DNA of 64,000 nucleotides from assembly GCA_032718475.1 (NCBI GenBank), contig JAUCBJ010004655.1:1-64000 (forward strand), written 5' to 3'. The stretch comes from Nemertoderma westbladi (taxonomy: Eukaryota; Animalia; Xenacoelomorpha). Below the pieces are notes generated by a model that worked only from the letters and a program-made list of their open reading frames with translations, did no database searches and was not told where the DNA came from. Position 1 is the first letter of the stretch. Each line of letters begins with the position of its first letter. The position numbers were made by a program, and so were the translations under genes. Below are positions 1 through 52,000 of the stretch, in pieces.

Positions 1-3000
1 TACAGGGTTCCATTGGTTTGGAGGGGAAACGCACTCAGTATACAGGGTTCCATTGGTTTGGAGGGGAAACGCACTCAGTATACAGGGTTCCATTGGTTTG
101 GAGGGGAAACGCACTCAGTATACAGGGTTCCATTGGTTTGGAGGGGAAACGCACTCAGTATACAGGGTTCCATTGGTTTGGAGGGGAAACGCACTCAGTA
201 TACAGGGTTCCATTGGTTTGGAGGGGAAACGCACTCAGTATACAGGGTTCCATTGGTTTGGAGGGGAAACGCACTCAGTATACAGGGTTCCATTGGTTTG
301 GAGGGGAAACGCACTCAGTATACAGGGTTCCATTGGTTTGGAGGGGAAACGCACTCAGTATACAGGGTTCCATTGGTTTGGAGGGGAAACGCACTCAGTA
401 TACAGGGTTCCATTGGTTTGGAGGGGAAACGCACTCAGTATACAGGGTTCCATTGGTTTGGAGGGGAAACGCACTCAGTATACAGGGTTCCATTGGTTTG
501 GAGGGGAAACGCACTCAGTATACAGGGTTCCATTGGTTTGGAGGGGAAACGCACTCAGTATACAGGGTTCCATTGGTTTGGAGGGGAAACGCACTCAGTA
601 TACAGGGTTCCATTGGTTTGGAGGGGAAACGCACTCAGTATACAGGGTTCCATTGGTTTGGAGGGGAAACGCACTCAGTATACAGGGTTCCATTGGTTTT
701 GAGGGGAAACGCACTCAGTATACAGGGTTCCATTGGTTTGGAGGGGAAACGCACTCAGTATACAGGGTTCCATTGGTTTGGAGGGGAGACGCACTCAGTA
801 TACAGGGTTCCATTGGTTTGGAGGGGAAGACGCACTCAGTATACAGGGTTCCATTGGTTTGGAGGGGAAACGCACTCAGTATACAGGGTTCCATTGGTTT
901 GGAGGGGAAACGCACTCAGTATACAGGGTTCCATTGGTTTGGAGGGGAAACGCACTCAGTATACAGGGTTCCATTGGTTTGGAGGGGAAACGCACTCAGT
1001 ATACAGGGTTCCATTGGTTTGGAGGGGAAACGCACTCAGTATACAGGGTTCCATTGGTTTGGAGGGGAAACGCACTCAGTATACAGGGTTCCATTGGTTT
1101 GGAGGGGAAACGCACTCAGTATACAGGGTTCCATTGGTTTGGAGGGGAAACGCACTCAGTATACAGGGTTCCATTGGTTTGGAGGGGAAACGCACTCAGT
1201 ATACAGGGTTCCATTGGTTTGGAGGGGAAACGCACTCAGTATACAGGGTTCCATTGGTTTGGAGGGGAAACGCACTCAGTATACAGGGTTCCATTGGTTT
1301 GGAGGGGAAACGCACTCAGTATACAGGGTTCCATTGGTTTGGAGGGGAAACGCACTCAGTATACAGGGTTCCATTGGTTTGGAGGGGAAACGCACTCAGT
1401 ATACAGGGTTCCATTGGTTTGGAGGGGAAACGCACTCAGTGTACAGGGTTCCATTGGTTTGGAGGGGAGACGCACTCAGTATACAGGGTTCCATTGGTTT
1501 GGAGGGGAAACGCACTCAGTATACAGGGTTCCATTGGTTTGGAGGGGAAACGCACTCAGTATACAGGGTTCCATTGGTTTGGAGGGGAAACGCACTCAGT
1601 ATACAGGGTTCCATTGGTTTGGAGGGGAAACGCACTCAGTATACAGGGTTCCATTGGTTTGGAGGGGAAACGCACTCAGTATACAGGGTTCCATTGGTTT
1701 GGAGGGGAAACGCACTCAGTATACAGGGTTCCATTGGTTTGGAGGGGAAACGCACTCAGTATACAGGGTTCCATTGGTTTGGAGGGGAACGCACTCAGTG
1801 TACAGGGTTCCATTGGTTTGGAGGGGAGACGCACTCAGTATACAGGGTTCCATTGGTTTGGAGGGGAAACGCACTCAGTATACAGGGTTCCATTGGTTTG
1901 GAGGGGAAACGCACTCAGTATACAGGGTTCCATTGGTTTGGAGGGGAAACGCACTCAGTATACAGGGTTCCATTGGTTTGGAGGGGAAACGCACTCAGTA
2001 TACAGGGTTCCATTGGTTTGGAGGGGAAACGCACTCAGTATACAGGGTTCCATTGGTTTGGAGGGGAAACGCACTCAGTATACAGGGTTCCATTGGTTTG
2101 GAGGGGAGACGCACTCAGTATACAGGGTTCCATTGGTTTGGAGGGGAACGCACTCAGTATACAGGGTTCCATTGGTTTGGAGGGGAAACGCACTCAGTAT
2201 ACAGGGTTCCATTGGTTTGGAGGGGAAACGCACTCAGTATACAGGGTTCCATTGGTTTGGAGGGGAAACGCACTCAGTATACAGGGTTCCATTGGTTTGG
2301 AGGGGAAACGCACTCAGTGTACAGGGTTCCATTGGTTTGGAGGGGAAACGCACTCAGTATACAGGGTTCCATTGGTTTGGAGGGGAAACGCACTCAGTAT
2401 ACAGGGTTCCATTGGTTTGGAGGGGAAACGCACTCAGTATACAGGGTTCCATTGGTTTGGAGGGGAAACGCACTCAGTATACAGGGTTCCATTGGTTTGG
2501 AGGGGAAACGCACTCAGTATACAGGGTTCCATTGGTTTGGAGGGGAAACGCACTCAGTATACAGGGTTCCATTGGTTTGGAGGGGAAACGCACTCAGTAT
2601 ACAGGGTTCCATTGGTTTGGAGGGGAAACGCACTCAGTATACAGGGTTCCATTGGTTTGGAGGGGAAACGCACTCAGTATACAGGGTTCCATTGGTTTGG
2701 AGGGGAAACGCACTCAGTATACAGGGTTCCATTGGTGTGGAGGGGAAACGCACTCAGTATACAGGGTTCCATTGGTTTGGAGGGGAAACGCACTCAGTAT
2801 ACAGGGTTCCATTGGTTTGGAGGGGAAACGCACTCAGTATACAGGGTTCCATTGGTTTGGAGGGGAAACGCACTCAGTATACAGGGTTCCATTGGTTTGG
2901 AGGGGAAACGCACTCAGTATACAGGGTTCCATTGGTTTGGAGGGGAAACGCACTCAGTATACAGGGTTCCATTGGTTTGGAGGGGAAACGCACTCAGTAT

Positions 3001-6000
3001 ACAGGGTTCCATTGGTTTGGAGGGGAAACGCACTCAGTATACAGGGTTCCATTGGTTTGGAGGGGAAACGCACTCAGTATACAGGGTTCCATTGGTTTGG
3101 AGGGGAGACGCACTCAGTATACAGGGTTCCATTGGTTTGGAGGGGAAGCGCACTCAGTATACAGGGTTCCATTGGTTTGGAGGGGAAACGCACTCAGTAT
3201 ACAGGGTTCCATTGGTTTGGAGGGGAAACGCACTCAGTATACAGGGTTCCATTGGTTTGGAGGGGAAACGCACTCAGTATACAGGGTTCCATTGGTTTGG
3301 AGGGGAAACGCACTCAGTATACAGGGTTCCATTGGTTTGGAGGGGAAACGCACTCAGTATACAGGTTCCATTGGTTTGGAGGGGAAACGCACTCAGTATA
3401 CAGGGTTCCATTGGTTTGGAGGGGAGACGCACTCAGTATACAGGGTTCCATTGGTTTGGAGGGGAAACGCACTCAGTATACAGGGTTCCATTGGTTTGGA
3501 GGGGAGACGCACTCAGTATACAGGGTTCCATTGGTTTGGAGGGGAAACGCACTCAGTATACAGGGTTCCATTGGTTTGGAGGGGAAACGCACTCAGTATA
3601 CAGGGTTCCATTGGTTTGGAGGGGAAACGCATTCAGTATACAGGGTTCCATTGGTGTGGAGGGGAAACGCACTCAGTATACAGGGTTCCATTGGTTTGGA
3701 GGGGAAACGCACTCAGTATACAGGGTTCCATTGGTTTGGAGGGGAGACGCACTCAGTATACAGGGTTCCATTGGTTTGGAGGGGAGACGCACTCAGTATA
3801 CAGGGTTCCATTGGTTTGGAGGGGAGACGCACTCAGTATACAGGGTTCCATTGGTTTGGAGGGGAAACGCATTCAGTATACAGGGTTCCATTGGTTTGGA
3901 GGGGAGACGCACTCAGTATACAGGGTTCCATTGGTTTGGAGGGGAAACGCACTCAGTATACAGGGTTCCATTGGTTTGGAGGGGAGACGCACTCAGTATA
4001 CAGGGTTCCATTGGTTTGGAGGGGAGACGCACTCAGTATACAGGGTTCCATTGGTTTGGAGGGGAGACGCACTCAGTATACAGGGTTCCATTGGTTTGGA
4101 GGGGAGACGCACTCAGTATACAGGGTTCCATTGGTTTGGAGGGGAGACGCACTCAGTATACAGGGTTCCATTGGTTTGGAGGGGAGACGCACTCAGTATA
4201 CAGGGTTCCATTGGTTTGGAGGGGAGACGCACTCAGTATACAGGGTTCCATTGGTTTGGAGGGGAGACGCACTCAGTATACAGGGTTCCATTGGTTTGGA
4301 GGGGAGACGCACTCAGTATACAGGGTTCCATTGGTTTGGAGGTGAGACGCACTCAGTATACAGGGTTCCATTGGTTTGGAGGGGAGACGCACTCAGTATA
4401 CAGGGTTCCATTGGTTTGGAGGGGAGACGCACTCAGTATACAGGGTTCCATTGGTTTGGAGGGGAGACGCACTCAGTATACAGGGTTCCATTGGTTTGGA
4501 GGGGAGACGCACTCAGTATACAGGGTTCCATTGGTTTGGAGGGGAAACGCACTCAGTATACAGGGTTCCATTGGTTTGGAGGGGAAACGCACTCAGTGTA
4601 CAGGGTTCCATTGGTTTGGAGGGGAAGCGCACTCAGTGTACAGGGTTCCATTGGTTTGGAGGGGAGACGCACTCAGTATACAGGGTTCCATTGGTTTGGA
4701 GGGGAAGCGCACTCAGTATACAGGGTTCCATTGGTTTGGAGGGGAGACGCACTCAGTATACAGGGTTCCATTGGTTTGGAGGGGAAACGCACTCAGTATA
4801 CAGGGTTCCATTGGTTTGGAGGGGAAACGCACTCAGTATACAGGGTTCCATTGGTTTGGAGGGGAAACGCACTCAGTATACAGGGTTCCATTGGTTTGGA
4901 GGGGAAACGCACTCAGTATACAGGGTTCCATTGGTTTGGAGGGGAGACGCACTCAGTATACAGGGTTCCATTGGTTTGGAGGGGAGACGCACTCAGTATA
5001 CAGGGTTCCATTGGTTTGGAGGGGAAACGCACTCAGTATACAGGGTTCCATTGGTTTGGAGGGGAAACGCATTCAGTATACAGGGTTCCATTGGTGTGGA
5101 GGGGAAGCGCACTCAGTGTACAAGGTTCCATTGGTGTGGAGGGGAAACGCACTCAGTATACAGGGTTCCATTGGTTTGGAGGGGAAACGCACTCATTATA
5201 CAGGGTTCCATTGGTTTGGAGGGGAAACGCACTCAGTATACAGGGTTCCATTGGTTTGGAGGGGAGACGCACTCATTATACAGGGTTCCATTGGTTTGGA
5301 GGGGAAACGCACTCAGTATACAGGGTTCCATTGGTTTGGAGGGGAGACGCACTCAGTATACAGGGTTCCATTGGTTTGGAGGGGAAACGCACTCAGTATA
5401 CAGGGTTCCATTGGTTTGGAGGGGAGACGCACTCAGTGTACAGGGTTCCATTGGTTTGGAGGGGAAACGCACTCAGTATACAGGGTTCCATTGGTTTGGA
5501 GGGGAGACGCACTCATTATACAGGGTTCCATTGGTTTGGAGGGGAAACGCACTCAGTATACAGGGTTCCATTGGTTTGGAGGGGAGACGCACTCAGTATA
5601 CAGGGTTCCATTGGTTTGGAGGGGAAACGCACTCAGTATACAGGGTTCCATTGGTTTGGAGGGGAAACGCATTCAGTATACAGGGTTCCATTGGTGTGGA
5701 GGGGAAACGCACTCAGTATACAGGGTTCCATTGGTTTGGAGGGGAAACGCACTCAGTATACAGGGTTCCATTGGTTTGGAGGGGAAACGCACTCAGTATA
5801 CAGGGTTCCTTTGGTTTGGAGGGGAGACGCACTCAGTATACAGGGTTCCATTGGTTTGGAGGGGAGACGCACTCAGTATACAGGGTTCCATTGGTTTGGA
5901 GGGGAAACGCACTCAGTATACAGGGTTCCATTGGTTTGGAGGGGAAACGCATTCAGTATACAGGGTTCCATTGGTTTGGAGGGGAAACGCACTCAGTATA

Positions 6001-6410
6001 CAGTGTTCCATTGGTTTGGAGGGGAAACGCACTCAGTGTACAGGGTTCCATTGGTTTGGAGAGGAAACGCACTCAGTATACAGGGTTCCATTGGTTTGGA
6101 GGGGAAACGCATTCAGTATACAGGGCTCCATTGGTTTGGAGGGGAAACGCACTCAGTATACAGGGTTCCATTGGTTTGGAGGGGAAACGCACTCAGTATA
6201 CAGGGTTCCATTGGTTTGGAGGGGAAACGCATTCAGTATACAGGGTTCCATTGGTTTGGAGGGGAAACGCATTCAGTATACAGGGCTCCATTGGTCTGGA
6301 GGGGAAACGCACTCAGTATACAGGGTTCCATTGGTTTGGAGGGGAAACGCACTCAGTATACAAGGTTTCATTGGTTTGGAGGGGAAACGCACTCAGTATA
6401 CAGGGTTCCA
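1..6410 (+). repeat. 40-bp minisatellite (TACAGGGTTCCATTGGTTTGGAGGGGAAACGCACTCAGTA), about 160 copies, runs off the window start
   Basis: Direct reading; near-perfect at the 5' side, more variants toward the 3' end. Confidence 0.98.
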
Positions 6411-6904
6411 CATGGTTTATATACATGGTTTACTGTAAAATTGATTTTCTTATTTGTTTTTACAGTCGTTCTTGGGAATTCAGTATTTTAATGTTAATTC
6501 GATTTACCGATCTGTTAATAATTAAATATTGCTATATATGTAATAGTAAAATAAATTGGATGAGGGGCGCCATATTAAATAAAAACAACTACAATTAATC
6601 ATGAAATATTGGAAAATCTCAATCTATAGTAAACCTGAATGATTTACCTAAAAAAATTGAATGATTATTGATTGTAGACCTATGGAAAAACGTCAATTAA
6701 AATATATTTTTAAAAAGAAAAAAATTTTTAAAAAAATTTTTTTTTTTTCACCATTCCAACTATTCATTGTCCGACAAGATGTGCAGATACATCCTGTCGG
6801 ACAAGATCCAATATCAATTTGGGATCGTTCACGTGAACAGAGTGGAAAAGTCTGAGTATCTATTTTATATCTTCTGTATATATTTTAGTCGACATTTTTT
6901 TTAG

Positions 6905-7078
6905 ATTGTTTCATTTACAATGGGGGGTCTGTATGGAGGTCACCTTGAATATGACGGTGTGGCAGCAGTTGAACTCAATGTTGGCATGTTTTTTAACGGT
7001 CCACACCTTTGTGGACTCTGCGGCAACTGGGATTTCGAGCCATTTAATGACTTCTTGAATCCAAATGGAGAACCCGTA
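6905..7078 (+). CDS. Exon 1 in window: C-terminal part of VWD domain
   Basis: ttag|ATT...GTA|gtaagt; IVSFTMGG..HLEYDG..LCGLCGNWD..NDFLNPNG contains the VWD CGLCGN motif. Confidence 0.9.
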
Positions 7079-10000
7079 GTAAGTTATAATAGTGTTTATG
7101 TTTTTTTTCTCTACTGATATATTTTTATAATGTAGTAAATATTTATTTTGAACCACATTTCCATAGGTAACGTTGAACTAGTTGAAAAACAAGTGTTTCT
7201 GTATAATATATACATATGTTCCACGTTATGTCTAACTAATTATGATGTATGATCGGGGAGGTGTGCACATTATTATGAATTAGTGTCAACAATCAACACA
7301 ACACAACACAACACTTACTATAGGAGATATATATGTAGGAGATTGCCACAAACATTAATTATTTTAGTTAGATATATTTTTGTAAAACTCATACAGACCA
7401 GTAGGTTGAATGCAATCATCCTTCTCGTATGGTAAATCAAACTTATCAGAAACATGGTTATATCAGCTATATCAAACATTCGTATTTTATGCAAATAATA
7501 AATAATAATGAACTAATTATTTACATATACTGATTGAAATTTAGAATCACCAGGAATTTGTTGCTGCTTGGTCCCTCGGCGATTGCGATCCTGCTGATGT
7601 ACCAGGCGGTGTGTGTGATTCGCTCACATCCTCGGAAAGACACGCTGCTGCAGAACACGAGGTTAGAATCAAAAAATTTACTTTATTTGTTAATAATTTT
7701 GTTTAAGTACAATCAGAACATTTCTTTTATGAAGAAATTATGTTATAATCGGTGAAAGTCTAACGAGTTGCCTAATTAATTTATTTGTAATTTATTTTTG
7801 TGTTTTTAATCTTTGTTGGAGAGTTGAATTTAGATATGCTAACTGTGATAACAAAAGCACGATGTCTTGAGGTTAATGTCAAGCTACTAATTAATATATA
7901 AGCTTATCATGGTTGTGCTTCACTTACACATCCTAGTTTACAGGAGTGTCATTCCTATCCATATTTAAAACTAGCCCAGACGGGAGTTTAGCCACTGGAC
8001 TTCAATTCACAGATCACCATCTGGAAATATATAAAATTATTAAGAAGCTCTTAGCTTCTTTCCTGTCTCAATTCGATTCGATTTTTGGACAACATGGTGA
8101 TGGTGAAGTAAAAAAAACGTGTTCTGGTATTTAGCTCCCTGATTGGCTAGAGCTACAATAAGGCCTGGCCTGCTATACTACAATAATATACTATTAGTAG
8201 GCACACTGGGAAAGGCTATTCAGCTGGCGGGTTAATTAATACATTACAAACTTGTGTAAGCCTACTACAGTACAGTAATATAATATTAGTTGGCACACTG
8301 GGAAGAGCTATTCAGCTGGCGGCGGGATAATACATTACATTATAAACTACTACCATAACATATAACATAGGCCTACTATATTACAATAATATACTACTAG
8401 TTGGCACACTGGGAAGAGCTATTCAGCTGGCGGGATAATACATTACAAACTACTACAATAACATAGGCCTACTATATTACTGTACAATAATATACTATTA
8501 GTTGGCACACTGGGAAGAACTATTCAGCTGGCGGGATAATACATTACAAACATCAGATTTGTTGACCCCAAAAACCTTTTAATCCCAAAAAACTACTCAG
8601 CCATATGATAAACAATTGCGATTTTTCAACTAACAAATAAATTAATTACACCTAAATCCAATACAGCAATCCAAATTGTAATATGTGAAAAATTATCGCT
8701 AATATAACATTAGTGGAAAATTATTACATTACCCTGCAGTGGAATTATATTTTGCATTAGTTACATTAATTTATCGGTATTTTTTTATCTATTTAAATTT
8801 TTGATGCGATTTCTAGTTACCGATATATAGCAATTAATGTACAACACGCCAGTGTAAATATTACTCATTCCCCATTCAGTCACAGATAGACAGATCGGCT
8901 CGACTATAGTATTAATTCACTAATTTAAATTGCATCACCAACCAAATTGTATCAGTAAAAATTATTTTTTTGACAATTGATTTTTTTGTATTACTTCTCA
9001 GTGCCCCAGTTTTCTCATTGTAGGCCTATAATTCGATTGGTGCTGCTCCTGCATCTGTTGTCTGTTATGGACGCAACAACTTCCTCTCTTACGAAAATAC
9101 CAAACAGTACGTTCGTATCAAAATCGGTTTCATTTGTCTGTAGCCGCATGAAACTGTATCGCATCAATGATCGAACTGCTTTTGGAATCAAAGCACATAT
9201 TTGAAAATTGATAATTTTGTGTCCAAGCCGATTTGAAATCCTCATAAAGTTATGCTACAGATGAATAAAATCAATTAATGTGAGAAATTAACCCAAGGAG
9301 GGGGAGGGTTCCCCCTTAGCGGCCGTCCAAGTATGACGTCAGCACTTTAGGGGTGGAGGGGGGTTGGGAAAATCTGATGACGTGCTGATGAGGGGAGGGG
9401 AGGGGGTCAGCCAAAATCTGACGTCAGCATGTTCATTTATAGGTGCTAGAAGAGGTATAGCAGAAGAGTAAATAGCTTCGAAGGCCCGTAGCACGACCTT
9501 CTGTTTCAGTTACCAGTCACCATCTTTCAGTGATTAGGACGCAAAATTTTTTTTAATCTGATTTAGGGGAGGGGGGTGGGTCAACGCCTATCTGATGACA
9601 TCTGATTTAGGGGAGGGAGGGGGTCAACATTTTGGTGAAAAGTGCAGACGTCATACTTGGACGGCCCCTTAAATATACTTTGAGTAAAACTTAAGGTGGC
9701 GTAGTCCTAGATGATTTATTCTAAATGGTGTTCCTGTTGTGGTTTCACCACATTTTTGACTATTCAATGGTAACTACTGTTTAGTGGTTTGGCTCTGGTT
9801 GAATTTCCCCTGATTTGTGAATAATAAAGCAAAATCAATATCCAAGTCAGCCGCTAGGTCAATAAATATAAGTAAGTATTTCAATATTCAGAATTCAAAA
9901 GAAAAGTTTATCATAAAATATGATGAAATATGATGGTCAATAAATATAAGTAATAAAAAGTAATGTAAAGTTTAATAACAAACAAAAATCTAAAGGAAAA

Positions 10001-13000
10001 TAATTATTGTAGTATGGGACAGATAACAAAAGTTTTCATTTTTCGAGTGCTATATTTCAAATCGTAAAATATAATACACTTCTTAATTTACTTTATTTTA
10101 CGGCATATATATAACGACGACTTAAAAAAAAACATAAATACATTATATTGACATGCGTACTATTATATATCTAAAATTTAATATACACCACGATACATTA
10201 GTTAATACATTTTATTGTCGACAGTTTATATTATACTTTAGTGCCTAGGTATTCTAAATGTGGCGAGTCTTGCGGAATGTTCCAGTATGCCATTCGTTGA
10301 AAACATCTTAATTTCCTGCTTTGAAAATATGTGCGACGCCCTTCCCGATAACCCAAGAGCCAAATGTCAATACTTCGAGGCTTTAGTACGTCTGTGTCAG
10401 AATGCAGGTGTGGTCATGCAGGGAGACTGGAGACAACAGACTTCATGTGGTTAGTATCTAATAATTAAAATAATTTTGACTAGACAATAGGCTGCAGACA
10501 ACATACTGGATGTAACAGTCTGGTTGTGGTTGTGGGTTGTATCAAATAATTCAGACTCATAACGACTGGAGACTTCAATCTGGTTGTTGGTAGTATCAAA
10601 TAACTGGGGACAGTAGCAGTCTGGTTGTTGTTAGTATCAAATAATTCAGACTCATAAAGACTAGAGACTTCAATCTGGTTGTGGGGATAGTATCAAATAA
10701 CTGGGGACAGTAGCAGTCTGGTTGTTGTTAGTATCAAATAATTCAGACTCATAAAGACTGGAGACTTCAATCTGGTTGTGGGGGTAGTATCAAATACCTG
10801 GGGACAGTAGCAGTCTGGTTGTTGTTAGTATCAAATAATTCAGACTCATAAAGACTGGAGACTTCAATCTGGTTGTGGGGGTAGTATCAAATAATTCAGA
10901 CTCATAAAGACTGGAGACTTCAATCTGGTTGTTGGTAGTATCAAATAACTGGGGACAGTAGCAGTCTGGTTGTTGTTAGTATTAAATAATTCAGACTCAT
11001 AAAGACTGGAGACTTCAATCTGGTTGTTGGTAGTATCAAATAACTGGGGACAGTAAGTAGCAGTCTGGTCGTGGGTAGTATCAAATAATTCAGACTCATA
11101 AAGACTGGAGACTTCAATCTGGTTGTGGGGGTAGTATCAAATAACTGGGGACAGTAGCAGTCTGGTTGTTGTTAGTATCAAATAATTCAGACTCCTAAAG
11201 ACTGGAGACTTCAATCTGGTTGTGGGGGTAGTATCAAATAACTGGGGACAGTAGCAGTCTGGTTGTTGTTAGTATCAAATAATTCAGACTCATCAACACT
11301 GGAGACTTCAATCTGGTTGTGGGGGTAGTATCAAATAACTGGAGACAGTAGCAGTCTGGTCGTGGGTTGTATCAAATAATTCAGACTCATAAAGACTGGA
11401 GACTTCAATCTGGTTGTTGGTAGTATATAATACTGTAACTGGGGACAGTAGCAGTCTGGTTGTTGTTAGTATCAAATAATTCAGACTCATAAAGACTGGA
11501 GACTTCAATCTGGTTGTTGGTAGTATCAAATAACTGGGGACAGTTGTAGCAGTCTGGTTGTTGTTAGTATCAAATAATTCAGACTCATAAAGACTGGAGA
11601 CTTCAATCTGGTTGTTGGTAGTATCAAATAACTGGGGACAGTAAGTAGCAGTCTGGTCGTGGGTAGTATCAAATAATTCAGACTCATAAAGACTGGAGAC
11701 TTCAATCTGGTTGTTGGTAGTATTAAATAACTGGGGACAGTAGCAGTCTGGTAGTTGTTAGTATCAAATAATTCAGACTCATAAAGACTGGAGACTTCAA
11801 TCTGGTTGTTGGTAGTATCAAATAACTGGGGACAGTTGTAGCAGTCTGGTTGTTGTTAGTATCAAATAATTCAGACTCATAAAGACTGGAGACTTCAATC
11901 TGGTTGTTGGTAGTATCAAATAACTGGGGACAGTAAGTAGCAGTCTGGTCGTGGGTAGTATCAAATAATTCAGACTCATAAAGACTGGAGACTTCAATCT
12001 GGTTGTTGGTAGTATTAAATAACTGGGGACAGTAGCAGTCTGGTTGTTGTTAGTATTAAATAATTCAGACTCATAAAGACTGGAGACTTCAATATGATTG
12101 TTGGTAGTATAAAATAACTGGGAACAGTAAGTAGCAGTCTGGTCGTGGGTAGTATCAAATAATTCAGACTCATAAAGACTGGAGACTTCAATCTGGTTGT
12201 TGGTAGTATATAATACTGTAACTGGGGACAGTAGCAGTCTGGTTGTTGTTAGTATCAAATAATTCAGACTCATAAAGACTGGAGACTTCAATCTGGTTGT
12301 TGGTAGTATCAAATAACTGGGGACAGTAGCAGTCTGGCCGTGGGTTGTATCAAATAATTCAGACTCATAAAGACTGTAGACTTCAATCTGGTTGTTGGTA
12401 GTATCAATTACCTGGGGACAGTAGCAGTCTGGTTGTTGTTAGTATCAAATAATTCAGACTCATAATGACTGGAGACTTCAATCTGGTTGTTGGTAGTATC
12501 AAATAACTGGGGACAGTTGTAGCAGTCTGGTTGATGTTAGTATCAAATAATTCAGACTCATAAAGACTGGAGACTTCAATCTGGTTGTTGGTAGTATCAA
12601 ATAACTGGGGACAGTAGCAGTCTGGTTGTTGTTAGTATTAAATAATTCAGACTCATAAAGACTGGAGACTTCAATCTGGTTGTTGGTAGTATCAAATAAC
12701 TGGGGACATTAGCAGTCTGGTTGTTGTTAGTATCAAATAATTCATACTGATAAAGACTGGAGACTTCAATCTGGTTGTGGGGGTAGTATCAAATAACTGG
12801 GGACAGTAGCAGTCTGGTTGTGGGTTGTATCAAATAACTGGGGACAATACTGTAGCAGTCTGGTTGTTGTTAGTATCAAATAATTCAGACTCAAAAAGAC
12901 TGGAGACTTCAATCTGGTTGTTGGTAGTATCAAATAACTGGGGACAGTAGCAGTCTGGTTGTTGTTAGTATTAAATAATTCAGACTCATAAAGACTGGAG

Positions 13001-40000: not shown

Positions 40001-43000
40001 TGGATGAACGCTGTGGTACCATGTGGATTTAGTTGGGTGAATAATGTGGTGCCATGTCAGTTAGTTGGATGAACGCTGTGGTACCATATGGATTTAGTTG
40101 GGTGAACACTGTGTTACCATGTGGATTTAGTTGGGTGAATGCTGTGGTACCATGTGGATTTAGTTGGGTGAACGCCGTGGTACCCTGTGGATTTAGTTGG
40201 GTGAATGCTGTGGTACCATGTGTATTTAGTTGGGTGAACACTATGGTACCATGTGGATTTAGTTGGGTGAACACTGTGGTACCATGTGGATTTAGTTGGA
40301 TGAACGCTGTTGTACCATGTGGATTTAGTTGGGTGAATACTGTGGTGCCATGTCAGTTAGTTGGAGACCGCTGTGGTACCATGTGGATTTAGTTGGGTGA
40401 ACACTGTGGTACCTTGTGGATTTAGTTGGATGAACGCTGTGGTACCATGTCAGTTAGTTGGATGAACGCTGTGGTACCATATGGATTTAGTTGGGTGAAC
40501 ACTGTGTTACCATGTGGATTTAGTTGGGTGAATGCTGTGGTACCATGTGGATTTAGTTGGATCAACGCTGTGGTACCATGTGGATTTAGTTGGGTGAACA
40601 CTGTGGTACCATGTGGATTTAGTTGGATGAACGCTGTGGTACCATATGGATTTAGTTGGGTGAACACTGTGGTACCATGTGGATTTAGTTGGATGAACGC
40701 TTTGGTACCATGTGGATTTAGTTGGGTGAACACTATGGTACCATGTCGATTTAGTTGGGTGAATACTGTGGTGCCAGTCAATTAGTTGGATGAACGCTGT
40801 GGTACCATATGGATTTAGTTGGGTGAACACTGTGTTACCATGTGGATTTAGTTGGGTGAATGCTGTGGTACCATGTGGATTTAGTTGGATCAACGCTGTG
40901 GTACCATGTGGATTTAGTTGGGTGAACACTATGGTACCATGTGGATTTAGTTGGGTGAATACTGTGGTGCCATGTCAGTTAGTTGGATGAACGCTGTGGT
41001 ACCATATGGATTTAGTTGGGTGAACACTGTGTTACCATGTGGATTTAGTTGGGTGAATGCTGTGGTACCATGTGGATTTAGTTGGATCAACGCTGTGGTA
41101 CCATGTGGATTTAGTTGGGTGAACACTATGGTACCATGTGGATTTAGTTGGGTGAACACTGTGGTACCATGTGGATTTAGTTGCGTGAACACTATGGTAC
41201 CATGTGGATTTAGTTGGGTGAACACTGTGGTACCATGTGGATTTAGTTGGATGAATGCTGTGGTACCATGTGGATTTAGTTGGGTGAACACTATGGTACC
41301 TTGTGGAGTTAGTTGGGTGAACACTATGGTACCATGGGGATTTAGTTGGGTGAACACTGTGGTACCATGTGGATTTAGTTGGATGAACGCTGTGGTACCA
41401 TGTGGATTTAGTTGGGTGAACACTATGGTACCTTGTGGAGTTAGTTGGGTGAACACTATGGTACCATGGGGATTTAGTTGGATGAACGCTGTGGTACCAT
41501 GTGGATTTAGTTGGGTGAATAATGTGGTGCCATGTCAGTTAGTTGGATGAACGCTGTGGTACCATATGGATTTAGTTGGGTGAACACTGTGGTACCATGT
41601 GGATTTAGTTGGATGAACGCTTTGGTACCATGTGGATTTAGTTGGGTGAACACTATGGTACCATGTGAATTTAGTTCGGTGAACACTGTGTTACCATGTT
41701 GATTTAGTTGGGTGAATGCTGTGGTACCATGTGGTTTTAGTTGGGTGAACACTATGGTACCATGTGGATTTAGTTGGGTGAAAACTGTGGTACCATGTGG
41801 AATTAGTTTGGTGAACGCCGTGGTACCCTGTGGATTTAATTGGGTGAACGGCGAACGCCGTGGTACCCTGTGGATTTAGTTGGGTGAACGCCGTGGTACC
41901 CTGTGGATTTAGTTGGGTGAAAGCTGTGGAACCATGTCAGTTAGTTGGGTGAACGCCGTGGTACCCTGTGGATTTAGTTGGGTGAACACTGTGTTACCAT
42001 GTGGATTTAGTTGGATGAACGCTGTGGTACCATTTGGATTTAGTTGGGTGAATACTGTGGTGCCATGTCAGTTAGTTGGATGAACGCTGTGGTACCATAT
42101 GGATTTAGTTGGGCGAACACTGTGTTACCATGTGGATTTAGTTGGGTGAATGCTGTGGTACCATGTGGATTTAGTTGGATCAACGCTGTGGTACCATGTG
42201 GATTTAGTTGGGTGAACACTATGGTACCATGTGGATTTAGTTGGGTGAACACTGTGGTACCATGGGGATTTAGTTGGATGAACGTTGTGGTACCATGTGG
42301 ATTTAGTTGGGTGAACACTATGGTACCTTGTGGAGTTAGTTGGGTGAACACTATGGTACCATGGGGATTTAGTTGGGTGAACACTGTGGTACCATGTGGA
42401 TTTAGTTGGATGAACGCTGTGGTACCATATGGATTTAGTTGGGTGAACACTGTGGTACCATGTGGATTTAGTTGGATGAACGCTTTGGTACCATGTGGAT
42501 TTAGTTGGGTGAACACTATGGTACCATGTGGATTTAGTTCGGTGAGCACTGTGTTACCATGTTGATTTAGTTGGGTGAATGCTGTGGTACCATGTGGTTT
42601 TAGTTGGGTGAACACTATGGTACCATGTGGATTTAGTTGGGTGAAAGCTGTGGTACCATGTGGATTTAGTTTGGTGAACGCCGTGGTACCATGTCAGTTA
42701 GTTGGATGAACGCTGTGGTACCATGTGGATTTAGTTGAGTGAACACTGTGGTGCCATGTGGATTTAGTTGGGTGAACGCCGTGGTACCCTGTGGATTTAA
42801 TTGGGTGAACGACGAACGCCGTGGTACCCTGTGGATTTAGTTGGGTGAACGCCGTGGTACCCTGTGGATTTAGTTGGGTGAAAGCTGTGGAACCATGTCA
42901 GTTAGTTGGGTGAACGCCGTGGTACCATTTCAGTTAGTTGGATGAAAGCTGTGGTACCCTGTGGATTTAGTTGGGTGAACGCCGTGGTACCCTGTGGATT

Positions 43001-46000
43001 TAGTTGGGTGAAAGCTGTGGAACCATGTCAGTTAGTTGGGTGAACGCCGTGGTACCATGTCAGTTAGTTGGATGAACGCTGTGGTACCCTGTGGATTTAG
43101 TTGGGTGAACGCCGTGGTACCCTGTGGATTTAGTTGGGTGAACGCTGTGGAACCATGTCAATTAGTTGGATGAACGCCGTGGTACCATGTCAGTTAGTTA
43201 GATGAACGCCGTGGTACCGTGTGGATTTAGTTGGGTGAACACTGTGTTACCATGTGGATTTAGTTGGGTGAACGCTGTGGTACCATGTGGATTTAGTTGG
43301 GTGAACACTGTGGTACTATGTGGATTTAGTTGGGTGAACACCGTGTTACCATGTTGATTTAGTTGGGTGAATGCTGTGGTACCATGTGGTTTTAGTTGGG
43401 TGAACACTGTGGTACCATGTGGATTTAGTTGGGTGAATGCTGTGGTACCATGTGGATTTAGTTAGGTGAACGCTGTGGTACCCTGTGAATTTAGTTGGGT
43501 GAAAGCTGTGGAACCATGACAGTTAGTTGGGTGAACGCCGTGGTACCCTGTGGATTTAGTTGGGTGAACACTGTAGTACCATGTGGATTTAGTTGAGTGA
43601 ATGCTGTGGTACCATGCGGATTTAGTTGGGTGAACGCTTTGGTACCATGTGGATTTAGTTCAGTGAACGCTATGGTACCTTGTGGATTTAGTTGGGTGAA
43701 AGCTTTGGTACCATGTGGATTTAATTGAGTGAACACTGTGGTACCATGTGGATTTAGTTGGGTGAAAGCTGTGGTACCATGTGAATTTAGTTGGGTGAAC
43801 GCTGTGGTACCATGTGGATTTAGTTGGGTGAACGCTGTTACCATGTGGATTTAGTTGGGTGAACGCTGTGGTACCATGTGGATTTAGTTGGGTGAAGACT
43901 GTTACCATGTGGATTTAGTTGGGTGAACGCTGTTGTACCTTGTGGATTTAGTTGGGTGAAAGCTGTGGTACCATGTCAGTTAGTTGGGTGAAAGCCGTGG
44001 TACCCTGTGGATTTAGTTGGGTGAACTCTGTGTTACCATGTGGATTTAGTTGGGTGAACGCTGTGGTACCATGTGGATTTAGTTGGGTGAACGCTGTTAC
44101 CATGTGGATTTAGTTGGGTGAACGCTGTGGTACCATGTGGATTTAGTTGGGTGAACGCTGTTACCATGTGGATTTAGTTGGGTGAACGCTGTGATACCTT
44201 GTGGATTTAGTTGGGTGAAAGCTGTGGTACCATGTCAGTTAGTTGGGTGAAAGCCGTGGTACCCTGTGGATTTAGTTGGGTGAACACTGTGTTACCATGT
44301 GGATTTAGTTGGGTGAACGCTGTGGTACCCTGTGGATTTAGTTGGGTGAACACTGTGTTACCATGTGGATTTAGTTGGGTGAAAGCTTTGGTACCATGTG
44401 GATTTAGATGGGTGAACGCCGTGGTACCATGTGGATTTAGTTGAGTGAACACTGTGGTACCATGTGGATTTAGTTGGGGGAAAGCTTTGGTACCATGTGG
44501 ATTTAGTTGGGTGAAAGCTTTGGTACCATGTGGATTTAGTTGGGTGAACACTGTGTTACCATGTGGATTTAGTTGGGTGAACACCATGGTACCATGTGGA
44601 TTTAGTTGGGTGAACACTGTGGTACCTTGTGGATTTAGTTGGGTGAACACTGTGGTACCATGTGGATTTAGTTGGGTGAACACTGTGGTACCTTGTGGAT
44701 TTAGTTGGGTGAACACTGTGGTACCATATGGATTTAGTTGGGTGAACACTGTGGTAACTTGTGGATTTAGTTGGGTGAACACTATGGTACCATGTGGATT
44801 TAGTTGGGTGAACAATGTGATACCTTGTGGATTTAGTTGGGTGAACACTGTGGTACCATATGGATTTAGTTGGGTGAACACTGTGGTACCTTGTGGATTT
44901 AATTGGGTGAACACTGTGGTACCATGTGGATTTAGTTGGGTGAAAGCTTTGGTACCATGTGGATTTAGTTGGGTGAACACTGTGGTACCATGTGGATTTA
45001 GTTGGGTGATCACTGTGGTACCTTGTGGATTTAGTTGGGTGAACACTGTGGTACCTTGTGGATTTAGTTGGGTGAACACTATGGTACCATGTGGATTTAG
45101 TTGGGTGAACACTGTGCTACCTTGTGGATTTAGTTGGGTGAACACTGTGGTACCATATGGATTTAGTTGGGTGAACACTGTGTTACCATGTGGATTTAGT
45201 TGGGTGAAAGCTTTGGTACCATGTGGATTTAGATGGGTGAACGCCGTGGTACCATGTGGATTTAGTTGAGTGAACACTGTGGTACCATGTGGATTTAGTT
45301 GGGTGAAAGCTTTGGTACCATGCGGATTTAGTTGGGTGAACACTGTGGTACCTTGTGGATTTAGTTGGGTGAACACTGTGGTGCCATGTGGATTTAGTTG
45401 GGTGAACACTATGGTACCTTGTGGAGTTAGTTGGGTGAATACTGTGGTACCATGTCAGTTAGTTGGATGAACGCTGTGGTACCATATGGATTTAGTTGGG
45501 TAAACACTGTGTTACCATTTGGATTTAGTTGGGTAAACACTGTGGTACCATGTGGATTTAGTTGGGTGAACACTATGGTACCTTGTGGAGTTAGTTGGGT
45601 GAATACTGTGGTACCATGTCAGTTAGTTGGATGAACGCTGTGGTACCATATGGATTTAGTTGGGTAAACACTGTGTTACCATTTGGATTTAGTTGGGTAA
45701 ACACTGTGGTACCATGTGGATTTAGTTGGGTGAACACTATGGTACCTTGTGGAGTTAGTTGGGTGAATACTGTGGTACCATGTCAGTTAGTTGGATGAAC
45801 GCTGTGGTACCATATGGATTTAGTTGGGTAAACACTGTGTTACCATGTGGATTTAGTTGGGCGAACACTGTGTTACCATGTGGATTTAGTTGGGTGAATG
45901 CTGTGGTACCATGTGGATTTAGTTGGATCAACGCTGTGGTACCATGTGGATTTAGTTGGGTGAACACTATGGTACCATGTGGATTTAGTTGGGTGAACAC

Positions 46001-49000
46001 TGTGGTACCATGGGGATTTAGTTGGATGAACGTTGTGGTACCATGTGGATTTAGTTGGGTGAACACTATGGTACCTTGTGGAGTTAGTTGGGTGAACACT
46101 ATGGTACCATGGGGATTTAGTTGGGTGAACACTGTGGTACCATGTGGATTTAGTTGGATGAACGCTGTGGTACCATATGGATTTAGTTGGGTGAACACTG
46201 TGGTACCATGTGGATTTAGTTGGATGAACGCTTTGGTACCATGTGGATTTAGTTGGGTGAACACTATGGTACCATGTGGATTTAGTTCGGTGAGCACTGT
46301 GTTACCATGTTGATTTAGTTGGGTGAATGCTGTGGTACCATGTGGTTTTAGTTGGGTGAACACTATGGTACCATGTGGATTTAGTTGGGTGAAAGCTGTG
46401 GTACCATGTGGATTTAGTTTGGTGAACGCCGTGGTACCATGTCAGTTAGTTGGATGAACGCTGTGGTACCATGTGGATTTAGTTGAGTGAACACTGTGGT
46501 GCCATGTGGATTTAGTTGGGTGAACGCCGTGGTACCCTGTGGATTTAATTGGGTGAACGACGAACGCCGTGGTACCCTGTGGATTTAGTTGGGTGAACGC
46601 CGTGGTACCCTGTGGATTTAGTTGGGTGAAAGCTGTGGAACCATGTCAGTTAGTTGGGTGAACGCCGTGGTACCATTTCAGTTAGTTGGATGAAAGCTGT
46701 GGTACCCTGTGGATTTAGTTGGGTGAACGCCGTGGTACCCTGTGGATTTAGTTGGGTGAAAGCTGTGGAACCATGTCAGTTAGTTGGGTGAACGCCGTGG
46801 TACCATGTCAGTTAGTTGGATGAACGCTGTGGTACCCTGTGGATTTAGTTGGGTGAACGCCGTGGTACCCTGTGGATTTAGTTGGGTGAACGCTGTGGAA
46901 CCATGTCAATTAGTTGGATGAACGCCGTGGTACCATGTCAGTTAGTTAGATGAACGCCGTGGTACCGTGTGGATTTAGTTGGGTGAACACTGTGTTACCA
47001 TGTGGATTTAGTTGGGTGAACGCTGTGGTACCATGTGGATTTAGTTGGGTGAACACTGTGGTACTATGTGGATTTAGTTGGGTGAACACCGTGTTACCAT
47101 GTTGATTTAGTTGGGTGAATGCTGTGGTACCATGTGGTTTTAGTTGGGTGAACACTGTGGTACCATGTGGATTTAGTTGGGTGAATGCTGTGGTACCATG
47201 TGGATTTAGTTAGGTGAACGCTGTGGTACCCTGTGAATTTAGTTGGGTGAAAGCTGTGGAACCATGACAGTTAGTTGGGTGAACGCCGTGGTACCCTGTG
47301 GATTTAGTTGGGTGAACACTGTAGTACCATGTGGATTTAGTTGAGTGAATGCTGTGGTACCATGTGGATTTAGTTGGGTGAACGCTTTGGTACCATGTGG
47401 ATTTAGTTCAGTGAACGCTATGGTACCTTGTGGATTTAGTTGGGTGAAAGCTTTGGTACCATGTGGATTTAATTGAGTGAACACTGTGGTACCATGTGGA
47501 TTTAGTTGGGTGAAAGCTGTGGTACCATGTGAATTTAGTTGGGTGAACGCTGTGGTACCATGTGGATTTAGTTGGGTGAACGCTGTTACCATGTGGATTT
47601 AGTTGGGTGAACGCTGTGGTACCATGTGGATTTAGTTGGGTGAAGACTGTTACCATGTGGATTTAGTTGGGTGAACGCTGTTGTACCTTGTGGATTTAGT
47701 TGGGTGAAAGCTGTGGTACCATGTCAGTTAGTTGGGTGAAAGCCGTGGTACCCTGTGGATTTAGTTGGGTGAACTCTGTGTTACCATGTGGATTTAGTTG
47801 GGTGAACGCTGTGGTACCATGTGGATTTAGTTGGGTGAACGCTGTGGTACCATGTGGATTTAGTTGGGTGAACGCTGTTACCATGTGGATTTAGTTGGGT
47901 GAACGCTGTGGTACCATGTGGATTTAGTTGGGTGAACGCTGTGGTACCATATGGATTTAGTTGGGTGAACGCTGTGGTACCATGTGGATTTAGTTGGGTG
48001 AACGCTGTTACCATGTGGATTTAGTTGGGTGAACGCTGTGGTACCATGTGGATTTAGTTGGGTGAACGCTGTTACCATGTGGATTTAGTTGGGTGAACGC
48101 TGTGATACCTTGTGGATTTAGTTGGGTGAAAGCTGTGGTACCATGTCAGTTAGTTGGGTGAAAGCCGTGGTACCCTGTGGATTTAGTTGGGTGAACACTG
48201 TGTTACCATGTGGATTTAGTTGGGTGAACGCTGTGGTACCCTGTGGATTTAGTTGGGTGAACACTGTGTTACCATGTGGATTTAGTTGGGTGAAAGCTTT
48301 GGTACCATGTGGATTTAGATGGGTGAACGCCGTGGTACCATGTGGATTTAGTTGAGTGAACACTGTGGTACCATGTGGATTTAGTTGGGGGAAAGCTTTG
48401 GTACCATGTGGATTTAGTTGGGTGAAAGCTTTGGTACCATGTGGATTTAGTTGGGTGAACACTGTGTTACCATGTGGATTTAGTTGGGTGAACACCATGG
48501 TACCATGTGGATTTAGTTGGGTGAACACTGTGGTACCTTGTGGATTTAGTTGGGTGAACACTGTGGTACCATGTGGATTTAGTTGGGTGAACACTGTGGT
48601 ACCTTGTGGATTTAGTTGGGTGAACACTGTGGTACCATATGGATTTAGTTGGGTGAACACTGTGGTAACTTGTGGATTTAGTTGGGTGAACACTATGGTA
48701 CCATGTGGATTTAGTTGGGTGAACAATGTGATACCTTGTGGATTTAGTTGGGTGAACACTGTGGTACCATATGGATTTAGTTGGGTGAACACTGTGGTAC
48801 CTTGTGGATTTAATTGGGTGAACACTGTGGTACCATGTGGATTTAGTTGGGTGAAAGCTTTGGTACCATGTGGATTTAGTTGGGTGAACACTGTGGTACC
48901 ATGTGGATTTAGTTGGGTGATCACTGTGGTACCTTGTGGATTTAGTTGGGTGAACACTGTGGTACCTTGTGGATTTAGTTGGGTGAACACTATGGTACCA

Positions 49001-52000
49001 TGTGGATTTAGTTGGGTGAACACTGTGCTACCTTGTGGATTTAGTTGGGTGAACACTGTGGTACCATATGGATTTAGTTGGGTGAACACTGTGTTACCAT
49101 GTGGATTTAGTTGGGTGAAAGCTTTGGTACCATGTGGATTTAGATGGGTGAACGCCGTGGTACCATGTGGATTTAGTTGAGTGAACACTGTGGTACCATG
49201 TGGATTTAGTTGGGTGAAAGCTTTGGTACCATGCGGATTTAGTTGGGTGAACACTGTGGTACCTTGTGGATTTAGTTGGGTGAACACTGTGGTGCCATGT
49301 GGATTTAGTTGGGTGAACACTATGGTACCTTGTGGAGTTAGTTGGGTGAATACTGTGGTACCATGTCAGTTAGTTGGATGAACGCTGTGGTACCATATGG
49401 ATTTAGTTGGGTAAACACTGTGTTACCATTTGGATTTAGTTGGGTAAACACTGTGGTACCATGTGGATTTAGTTGGGTGAACACTATGGTACCTTGTGGA
49501 GTTAGTTGGGTGAATACTGTGGTACCATGTCAGTTAGTTGGATGAACGCTGTGGTACCATATGGATTTAGTTGGGTAAACACTGTGTTACCATTTGGATT
49601 TAGTTGGGTAAACACTGTGGTACCATGTGGATTTAGTTGGGTGAACACTATGGTACCTTGTGGAGTTAGTTGGGTGAATACTGTGGTACCATGTCAGTTA
49701 GTTGGATGAACGCTGTGGTACCATATGGATTTAGTTGGGTAAACACTGTGTTACCATGTGGATTTAGTTGGGTAAACACTGTGATACCATGTGGATTTAG
49801 TTGGGTGAACACTGTGGTACCATGTGGATTTAGTTGGGTGAACACTATGGTACCTTGTGGAGTTAGTTGGGTGAATACTGTGGTACCATGTCAGTTAGTT
49901 GGATGAACGCTGTGGTACCATATGGATTTAGTTGGGTAAACACTGTGTTACCATTTGGATTTAGTTGGGTAAACACTGTGGTACCATGTGGATTTAGTTG
50001 GGTGAACACTATGGTACCTTGTGAAGTTAGTTGGGTGAATACTGTGGTACCGTGTCAGTTAGTTGGATGAACGCTGTGGTACCATATGGATTTAGTTGGG
50101 TGAACACTGTGTTACCATGTGGATTTAGTTGGGTAAACACTATGGTACCTTGTGGAGTTAGTTGGGTGAATACTGTGGTACCATGTCAGTTAGTTGGATG
50201 AACGCTGTGGTACCATATGGATTTAGTTGGGTAAACACTGTGTTACCATTTGGATTTAGTTGGGTAAACACTGTGGTGCCATGTGGATTTAGTTGGGTAA
50301 ACACTATGGTACCTTGTGGAGTTAGTTGGGTGAATACTGTGGTACCATGTCAGTTAGTTGGATGAACGCAATGGTACCATATGGATTTAGTTGGGTAACC
50401 ACTATGGTACCATGTGTATTTAGTTGGGTGAACGCTGTGGTAGCATGCGTGAGGTTATTTGGGTGAACAATAGGTGGCATATCTTTCGCGGGTAGGACTA
50501 CATAATTGTTTTGCATTGCATTTTTGTAGCCTGAAGATGAATGCGCTGATGATGCTGAGTGCCGACTAACCGGGAGCGGCGGAAGAGTTTGTCGATGTTT
50601 GTCGGGATTCAGTGGAAATGGAAAGAGCTGTACAAGTTAGTCTTAGGAATTTATCAAGAAATTAAACTCAATATAAAATTTGTCTTATTTTATTACCAAC
50701 TTATCTCAATCCAACTGTAATTTAATTTAATTCACTATTCTAATTGTCCTACTTATTTAATCTCTGCTTATCTTGCAGACATCAATGAATGTTTGGATGG
50801 CTCAGCGAGATGCGATGAGTCAAATGGTAATTGTATCGATACAGACGGGAGTTACGAATGCGAATGTCGGGAAGGTTACACTGGTAGTGGGTTTAATTGC
50901 GAACGTAAGTAATACTGTAATTGTTCGAAATATTAAAAGCTTGTGGATTGTTTGTGAGACATTAAACCGAACCGAATCAATTAGTTACATTATTAATGTA
51001 TTTACGTTCCCTTTAACTTGCGACCGTCGGTATTGTTACATTGATTATGAGGAAGGGTGTGTTTGATTCAGATATTATGTGATGTAAATTGTGTAGGATT
51101 TAGACTCTAAGGTATGAAGAATGTCTCACTTTGTCCTTTTATGACGCCACAATCTTGTATATATTATATTATATTATAGCGATGTGCCGACCTGGAGTTT
51201 GTCGTCATAAACAGACATGCTCTGTCGTAAACAACGCGGCAGTTTGTGAGTGTGTCTGTCAGGACCCGCATTGTGAACCTCTACCAGGGGAAGTCTGTGG
51301 GTCTGACGGTAACACGTATCCTAGCAACGCAGACCTCTTCGAAACATCGTGTCGATTGCCCTCGGAGGAACCAAGATTGACAGTCAGTTACTTCGGAGCC
51401 TGCGAAGGTGAGTGACTCATTAATTATGTTTCTGTAATCATAATTGAACAGTCTGATCCTCTTTGTCTGTCAACAGCCTTTCTAAACACCATCCCCATGG
51501 CTCCCCTGTCACCAGCCAACCAAATACTATCCTTGATCTTTGACTGCCCATCACCAGACTACCAAATACCATTTTTTGCTGTGACACCTCTAGATGGCTC
51601 CCGTATATATTACTGTAAGCATATGCCTACAATTTACTAAACAATACATTCGTTAATTAACAACAGATGAGTGTGATGGAGTTACGTGCCGAGATGGGAC
51701 TAGCTGTGAGGTTGTGGATGGATTAGCGAACTGCGTATGCGATCCTTGTACACCCGAGTCGTACGACAGCGGACTTGTATGCGCGCAGCACCATCAGTTC
51801 GAATCGGAATGCGGTCTACATATATACAACTGTGCGAGCAGTAGTCAGCTCGTTGTCACTAATCCAGGGCCTTGCCCGCAACGTTAGTCATAATTTATAT
51901 ATAAACTTTTTTTCACTAATTTAATTTCATTGTCTCAGATATAAACTAAAAAAATTATAAATTGTAATATTACCACTAATCTTTATTGTAAAGTAAAAGT

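What the first reader, a model, noticed from the sequence alone, without database searches (positions are those of the whole stretch)
1..50529. Recurrent splice-donor-seeded satellites: introns inflated by tandem amplification of the exon 3' end plus 5' splice site
Seen: three independent introns of one gene (after exons ending 10449, 28721 and 38550) begin with kb-scale arrays. The arrays are unrelated to each other, but each unit is a copy of its own exon's last 15-83 nt plus the first intron bases, including the GT donor. The window-start array probably fits too. All lie at the donor end, and the residual unique intron follows the array. After all three true donors the reading frame hits a stop within 1-4 codons (GGT TAG; GGT AAG TAA; GTT AGT TTG TGA), so use of any downstream decoy would give a premature stop. 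Such stops are common after donors anyway. Established: minisatellites arise by microhomology-mediated duplication, and duplication across splice sites is a proposed route to intron change. Inference: repeated targeting of donors suggests a mechanism tied to the exon-intron junction (a transcription or splicing-linked R-loop or break, or rolling-circle or RT template-switch copying), together with a rule that selects the first of hundreds of identical donors. I do not recognise this as a named system.
Basis: partly seen in the sequence, partly recalled or inferred. Interest (0 to 1): 0.9.

Follow-up and report, generated by a model that had tools for sequence, protein, structure and literature searches.

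The report
Giant splice-donor "mirage" repeats in introns
In one animal gene, three introns are swollen by kilobases of tandem copies of the preceding exon's end and splice signal, and the one spliced transcript seen (covering two of the three) uses only the original signal, so these are likely tolerated, runaway repeats of a kind already described in lancelets and humans, unusual mainly for their size.

Summary
Mostly real, but a known kind. The window holds 25 exons of an animal vWD-C8-TIL-EGF-Kazal-TSP1 gene. Introns 3, 15 and 18 carry arrays of 3.3, 7.5 and 11.9 kb derived from their own exon end plus donor (44% of the gene span). A spliced contig joins the authentic (first) donors of exons 15 and 18 to the next exons. 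The 88-mer is repeated in a second sample too. A flanking 8-nt microhomology explains the 32-mer. These are 'mirage' or boundary-spanning minisatellites (amphioxus Adh3, globins; human F7, CBS, 6-16); first-donor choice was shown experimentally for F7. This scan noted the same kind in at least 12 other genomes, and acceptor-side cases too. What remains is scale (174 identical donors) and a post-hoc excess of donor-spanning arrays (3 of 6; 0.17-0.48 expected), untestable here without the genome.

The parts
6905..58126 (+). 25 coding exons of a secreted-type vWD-C8-TIL-TILa-(EGF)n-Kazal-TSP1 gene; both ends lie outside the modelled span
   Evidence: AG/GT ends, phases; Pfam: 11 of 13 exon pieces hit; two introns skipped at GT..AG in a contig
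10242..10449 (+). exon 3 (C8 domain); its 3' end and donor seeded the intron-3 array
10519..13849 (+). old, degenerate junction-derived array, units of 41 and 54-56 nt; no exact donor copy
28605..28721 (+). exon 15 (EGF); authentic donor at 28721, used in the spliced contig
28722..36232 (+). young junction-derived array, 32-nt (15 exon + 17 intron) and 55-nt units; 174 exact donor copies, last at 36206
36207..36490 (+). inferred pre-expansion intron 15 (284 nt), holding at 36225 the 8-nt word shared with exon 15 at 28708
38375..38550 (+). exon 18 (EGF); authentic donor at 38550, used in the spliced contig
38551..39482 (+). young 88-nt array (83 exon + 5 intron nt), 98% matches between units, 10 exact donor copies
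39487..50469 (+). older 33-nt array from the same donor (15 exon + 18 intron nt); 274 of 333 units lack the donor G; holds exact 1.5 and 1.8 kb block duplications
50454..50529 (+). inferred pre-expansion intron 18 (76 nt), beginning at the last junction-like unit
1..6418 (.). 40-nt array cut by the window start; origin not determined, no donor-like site in the unit
15949..16574 (.). 68-nt intronic array, not junction-derived (control)
17686..18385 (.). 11-nt intronic array, not junction-derived (control)
18476..19593 (.). 30-nt intronic array, not junction-derived (control)

Best explanation
Three introns of this gene carry tandem arrays built from their own exon end plus donor; these likely began as microhomology-guided tandem duplications and then grew by slippage and unequal exchange, and they are likely tolerated because the spliceosome takes the first donor, as the spliced contig shows for two of them. 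Steps: (1) shown: each unit derives from its own junction. (2) Shown for the 32-mer, inferred for the rest: short direct repeats one unit apart flanked the donor. (3) Inferred: once a copy exists, its likeness to the exon end invites new, longer duplications at the same donor (32 then 55 nt; 33 then 88 nt). (4) Inferred: block duplications of 1-4 kb took the arrays to 3-12 kb, inflating intron 15 about 27-fold and intron 18 about 160-fold. (5) Shown as presence only: mRNA made with the first donor; known from F7: 5'-to-3' choice of the most upstream donor. (6) Inferred: rare decoy use would hit a stop and be degraded, and with age the copies lose or weaken the donor. No function of the arrays is needed.
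For: Own-junction origin. Microhomology: exact 8-nt word at 28708 and 36225, 32 nt apart once the array is collapsed, equal to the unit length; only 1 of the 22 other donors has such a word of 8 or more. Two unit types at each of the three donors. Exact blocks at offsets 3748 and 3911 (33-mer), 1802 and 1416 (32-mer). Run X4 contig 25 skips introns 16 and 17 at GT..AG; its loose ends are the 30 nt ending at the authentic exon-15 end and the first 30 nt of exon 19, each unique in the window. The 88-mer stands as a separate deeper contig in X1 (224 against 19.5-23.4) and in a second sample (X2 50.4 against 21.8; X3 41.2 against 20.3) and carries the copy-type letter at 38522. Known class and rule: PMC1557585, PMC3087553, PMC3902484; general MTD origin of repeats: PMC13167724. 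Three arrays in the same gene are purely intronic, so the region makes minisatellites readily.
Against: Neutral birth plus tolerance does not predict an excess over purely intronic seeds, yet 3 of 6 arrays over 500 nt with a known start span a donor, against 0.17 expected (P 0.0004), or 0.37-0.48 when matched for GC and G skew (P 0.003-0.007); they are also the 3 longest of the 6 (1 in 20 by chance). These figures are post hoc for a window picked for this pattern. Microhomology is clear for one unit type only. One contig cannot show that decoys are unused. The lengths of the 32-, 33- and 41/56-mer arrays were not checked against reads.
Confidence: 0.7

Rival explanations
1. Junction-biased mutation: transcription- or splicing-coupled damage (R-loops at G-skewed exon ends, pausing at U1-bound donors) makes donor-containing units arise or, more likely, expand more than other seeds.
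For: 3 of 6 against 0.17-0.48 expected, 0 acceptor-spanning; the three are the longest; 7 of 8 arrays have sense-strand G skew of +0.15 or more while unique intron has -0.003 and exons +0.16; repeated seeding at one donor.
Against: Single, selected window; the longest array grew or persisted with 82% of units lacking the donor G; two non-junction arrays are also G-skewed; none of the small two-copy duplications in unique sequence spans a donor (11 rows, too few to weigh); acceptor-side arrays exist in amphioxus and in unchecked notes; nothing points to RT or rolling-circle copying (all units are unspliced exon-intron DNA, head to tail, in place).
Confidence: 0.2
2. Functional decoys: the donor ladders tune expression, by U1 binding, by a fraction of decoy-spliced, decay-bound transcripts, or by transcription delay.
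For: 180 donor-like sites in 7.5 kb of intron 15 (24 per kb against 2.35 per kb in unique intron); every decoy lies behind a stop; proximal pseudo-donors are used in human 6-16 and CBS (PMC1557585 Introduction).
Against: Stops after donors are the norm here (17 of 25); older arrays have lost or weakened their donors; the 88-mer appears at lower relative depth in the second sample, a hint of free length change; the only spliced contig uses first donors.
Confidence: 0.05
3. Assembly artefact: short repeats over-expanded by the assembler.
For: Exact 1517 and 1821 nt block duplicates in the 33-mer array; a frameshift in exon 24 may be a consensus error.
Against: Units carry structured variants; the 88-mer depth ratio in X1 (about 10) fits the 11.6 assembled copies (X1 may be the source sample, and contig depth is only a rough guide); a second sample also holds it repeated. 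An artefact could affect length only, not origin.
Confidence: 0.05

Closest known systems
Amphioxus 'mirage' minisatellites (Adh3, globins BflGb6/BflGb9, troponin C, PGBD5); PMC3087553 and PMC3902484, passages read. The original Adh3 paper (PMC117041) is not held; that most Adh3 minisatellites in one gene are mirages is recalled, not read.
   Same: Tandem units span an exon-intron boundary and copy the splice signal; many but not all units keep it; normal splicing persists; copy number differs between haplotypes; more than one such repeat can occur in a gene (PGBD5: 60 and 108 bp).
   Different: Here all three resolved cases are donor-side and reach 3-12 kb and hundreds of units, against 3 and 6 units for BflGb6; two generations of array sit at one donor; the organism is another, unidentified animal.
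Human F7 intron 7 37-bp VNTR, with 6-16, CBS intron 13, LMNB2 and PDGF intron 4 minisatellites; PMC1557585, abstract, synopsis, Introduction and passages of Results and Discussion read
   Same: First unit spans the exon-intron boundary; identical pseudo-donors follow; the most upstream site is used.
   Different: 5-25 copies there, 174 identical donors in intron 15 here; scanning was tested in mammalian cells, not in this organism; each human gene has one such array as described.
Microhomology-mediated tandem duplication (Haber-Louis model); PMC13167724, abstract and passages read
   Same: Single-copy segment flanked by short direct repeats is duplicated and may expand; the 32-mer fits exactly.
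   Different: The paper's main text has no occurrence of 'splice' or 'intron'; it does not address junctions.

Membership tests
Mirage / boundary-spanning minisatellite | Head-to-tail tandem array of minisatellite-size units | tested here: met
   periods 32/55, 88, 33, 41/56
Mirage / boundary-spanning minisatellite | Unit spans an exon-intron boundary of the host gene | tested here: met
   own junction is the best match for the arrays of introns 3, 15 and 18
Mirage / boundary-spanning minisatellite | Splice signal reiterated in many, not necessarily all, units | tested here: met
   174 exact (intron 15), 10 exact (88-mer), 51 of 333 weaker (33-mer), 0 exact but 29 donor-like (intron 3)
Mirage / boundary-spanning minisatellite | Authentic site still used in mRNA | tested here: met
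   for introns 15 and 18 (one contig, presence only); intron 3 not tested
Mirage / boundary-spanning minisatellite | Length instability between alleles or cells | tested here: inconclusive
   88-mer contig depth about 10 times flank in X1, about 2 times in X2 and X3; contig depth is not a copy number
Mirage / boundary-spanning minisatellite (window-start 40-mer) | Unit spans an exon-intron boundary | tested here: inconclusive
   no donor-like site; upstream exon outside the window; no homolog found
F7-type oriented-scanning donor choice | Knocking out the first donor activates only the next one | not testable with these tools
   needs minigenes
Microhomology-mediated tandem duplication | Direct repeat arms one unit apart in the pre-duplication sequence | tested here: met
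   exact 8 nt at 32-nt spacing for the 32-mer; only short or imperfect arms for the 55-, 88- and 33-mers; not resolvable for intron 3
RNA-mediated (RT or circle) amplification | Units show spliced joints, poly(A) or target-site duplications, or dispersed copies | tested here: not met
   units are unspliced exon-intron DNA in place; no second match elsewhere in the window; the rest of the genome could not be searched

The most novel reading that the evidence does not exclude
Donor-containing repeat units are not just tolerated but preferentially amplified by a transcription- or splicing-coupled process, so that in this lineage 5' splice sites act as genome-wide nucleation points for satellite growth and drive intron inflation by up to two orders of magnitude, while the spliceosome still picks the first of 174 identical donors.
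Probability: 0.2. Interest if true: 0.7.

Novelty: new member of a known kind. Interest (0 to 1): 0.3.

Why it matters
As it stands it is an unusually large example of a known repeat class: an intron of about 76 nt inferred to have grown to 12 kb, and a natural ladder of 174 identical strong donors, about seven times the largest published case read here (25 pseudo-sites in 6-16). That makes intron 15 a good natural substrate to measure how decoy use falls off with distance. If a genome-wide test showed a true donor bias in array growth, it would link splicing or transcription to satellite birth and intron-size evolution; the literature searches run here listed no such test.

Tried and rejected
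No whole genome is held, so the genome-wide test could not be run. No RNA holder listed; X4 is guessed as DNA there but its contig is spliced and covers no unique intron, so I treat it as transcript-derived; a retrocopy is not excluded. Homolog searches with exon 3 found nothing useful (0 of 5 candidates scored; 1 weak hit, not used), so the taxon and the exon upstream of the window-start array stay unknown. The 40-mer is open in all three sense frames, which a 50% GC 40-mer gives about one time in seven (my estimate); not taken as evidence of exon origin. The 68-mer's score of 25 against the exon-22 donor was rejected: it is not its own exon and lies within background (max 27). The 11-mer starts 37 nt after a donor but does not align to it. 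GC matching alone and a microhomology filter alone did not change the chance expectation; adding G skew doubled to tripled it. Stop codons after donors rejected as special. One print had an index error and was redone. No notes on this genome or look-alikes; word look-ups were empty. Paper searches listed no genome-wide donor-versus-acceptor test by title or abstract start; PMC10078293 and PMC9940879 (passages) did not bear on junction-derived units; searches gave only the papers cited. Supplements were not read; the mirage alignments of PMC3087553 are in them.
Full report
Setting. The window is animal DNA. Stop-free, cysteine-rich frames and AG/GT ends give 25 exons between 6905 and 58126 on the + strand, with consistent phases except a frameshift inside exon 24. 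Pfam names 11 of 13 exon pieces: VWD, C8, TIL, TILa, EGF and calcium-binding EGF, Kazal_2 and TSP1. Exons are 51% GC, unique intron 36%. No genome is held and no homolog was found, so the taxon is not determined.

The arrays. TRF lists 27 rows. Seven independent arrays exceed 500 nt: the window-start 40-mer, the intron-3 array, a 68-mer, an 11-mer, a 30-mer, the intron-15 array and the intron-18 pair (88-mer then 33-mer). A probe from each was scored against all 25 donors, all 25 acceptors and about 2300 background windows. The intron-15 array (54), the 88-mer (122) and the 33-mer (27) match their own donor above every background window. The intron-3 array also prefers its own donor (22; 1.6% of background reach that), and in an ungapped scan its own junction is the top hit of 59,946 windows for 3 of 3 probes, with 22 units at 30-31 of 41 identity. 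The 68-, 11- and 30-mers match neither flanking junction. The 40-mer matches nothing in the window. Junction-derived arrays total 22,761 nt, 44% of the gene span.

Donor content. With a weight matrix from the gene's own donors: intron 15 has 180 donor-like sites, 174 of them identical to the true 9-mer; the 88-mer has 10 exact copies; the intron-3 array has 0 exact and 29 weaker sites; the 40-mer has 1 site in 6418 nt; unique intron has 2.35 per kb. In the 33-mer, 274 of 333 units have lost the G of the GT, 51 keep a weaker GT and 8 are other. Its majority unit differs from the exon-18 junction at positions -2, -1 and +1 and nowhere else in the 15 exon and first 7 intron positions. So the young arrays keep the donor and the old ones have lost or weakened it. 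That fits weak selection against decoys or one chance change spread by homogenisation; two arrays cannot tell these apart.

How they arose. Collapsing the intron-15 array leaves a 284-nt intron that holds, 32 nt from its twin in the exon, an exact 8-nt word; 1 of the 22 other donors has a shared word that long. This is the signature of microhomology-mediated tandem duplication (PMC13167724). Each of the three loci has two unit types, the longer one reaching further into the exon; at exon 18 the 98%-identical 88-mer sits between the true donor and the 94%-identical 33-mer, so it is likely the younger. I infer that a first duplication creates homology to the exon end and invites the next; these second events are therefore not independent. 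Exact blocks at offsets of 1.4-3.9 kb point to later growth by unequal exchange, though assembly error could add to them. The last junction-like unit of intron 18 leaves 76 nt before the acceptor, against 11,979 now.

Are they real, and which donor is used? Four runs of one organism, three samples, hold the region. On 36240-38560 the 88-mer forms its own contig at depth 224 against 19.5-23.4 for flanks in X1 (possibly the source sample), 50.4 against 21.8 in X2 and 41.2 against 20.3 in X3 (one second sample, with different intronic alleles). All three carry the letter found at the 38522-equivalent position in 9 of the 10 copies but not in the exon. The repeat thus exists in two samples and may be shorter in the second; contig depth is a rough guide only. 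Run X4, guessed as DNA, gave a 2606-nt contig that skips introns 16 and 17 at GT..AG and covers no unique intron. Its loose end before exon 16 is the 30-mer 28691-28720 and its loose end after 38550 is the 30-mer 50530-50559; each occurs once in the window. So the authentic, first donors of exons 15 and 18 are used. This shows presence, not the absence of rare decoy use. Intron 3 and the window-start array have no read evidence. Any decoy use would include a stop at 10452, 28727 or 38560, but 17 of 25 donors here have a stop within four codons.

Is there targeting? In the array-collapsed gene, a random unit of the observed lengths spans a donor with probability 0.003-0.06; 0.17 of 6 are expected and 3 are seen (P 0.0004). 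Matching GC changes nothing; matching sense-strand G skew as well raises the expectation to 0.37-0.48 (P 0.003-0.007), because exon ends are G-skewed (exons +0.16, unique intron -0.003) and 7 of 8 arrays are too. The three are also the longest of the six. This is the strongest result against a purely neutral reading, but it comes from one window chosen for this very pattern out of some 250,000, so it is a lead, not a result. Acceptor-side arrays occur in amphioxus and in several unchecked notes of this scan, which argues against a donor-only process. Nothing indicates RNA-templated copying.

Comparison. PMC1557585 describes human minisatellites whose first unit spans an exon-intron boundary (F7, 6-16, CBS, LMNB2, PDGF) and shows with 50 constructs that the most upstream donor is chosen by 5'-to-3' scanning. 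PMC3087553 and PMC3902484 describe amphioxus 'mirages' at both boundary types, with normal splicing and unstable length, and call their mechanism of origin unclear. The three arrays meet the defining features that could be tested. Earlier notes of this scan report the donor-side kind in at least 12 other genomes; they are unchecked and not counted as support. Searches listed no genome-wide test of donor bias.

Verdict. Observation partly confirmed; interpretation partly supported; a new, very large member of a known kind. Best explanation (0.7): microhomology-born, freely expanding mirage minisatellites tolerated by first-donor choice. Junction-biased expansion (0.2) is the open, testable alternative. 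Interest 0.3.

Noticed in passing
window 53742-53961 (exon 24, near 53840-53850): One-base frameshift inside the EGF/Kazal-like exon: the reading continues in another frame. Assembly error or a broken allele.
   Followed up: partly
window 22701-23624 and 55025-57353: Two decayed LINE-type retroelement copies in introns 9 and 24: RVT_1 hit (E 1e-23) and endonuclease hits below cut-off; a second partial copy of the first one's 3' part follows at about 24220-24840; the second ends in a 66-nt tandem duplication at 57295-57426.
   Followed up: partly
window 25086-25159: tRNA-Asp gene or pseudogene inside intron 9.
   Followed up: no
window 37656-37727: Short high-copy interspersed element in intron 16; contig depth in the thousands in three DNA runs.
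   Followed up: no
window 14594-14780: Perfect pentanucleotide microsatellite, 37 copies, in intron 3.
   Followed up: no
window 18440-18476: The 30-mer array is preceded directly by a pyrimidine-rich, acceptor-like site; it does not match the next true acceptor.
   Followed up: partly
window arrays overall: 7 of 8 arrays are G-rich on the sense strand (skew +0.15 to +0.46), unlike unique intron.
   Followed up: partly
25 donors of the gene: 8 of 25 donors have T at +3 followed by AG and 2 more have T at +3, an unusually high share of non-purine +3 (the comparison with other animals is recalled).
   Followed up: no
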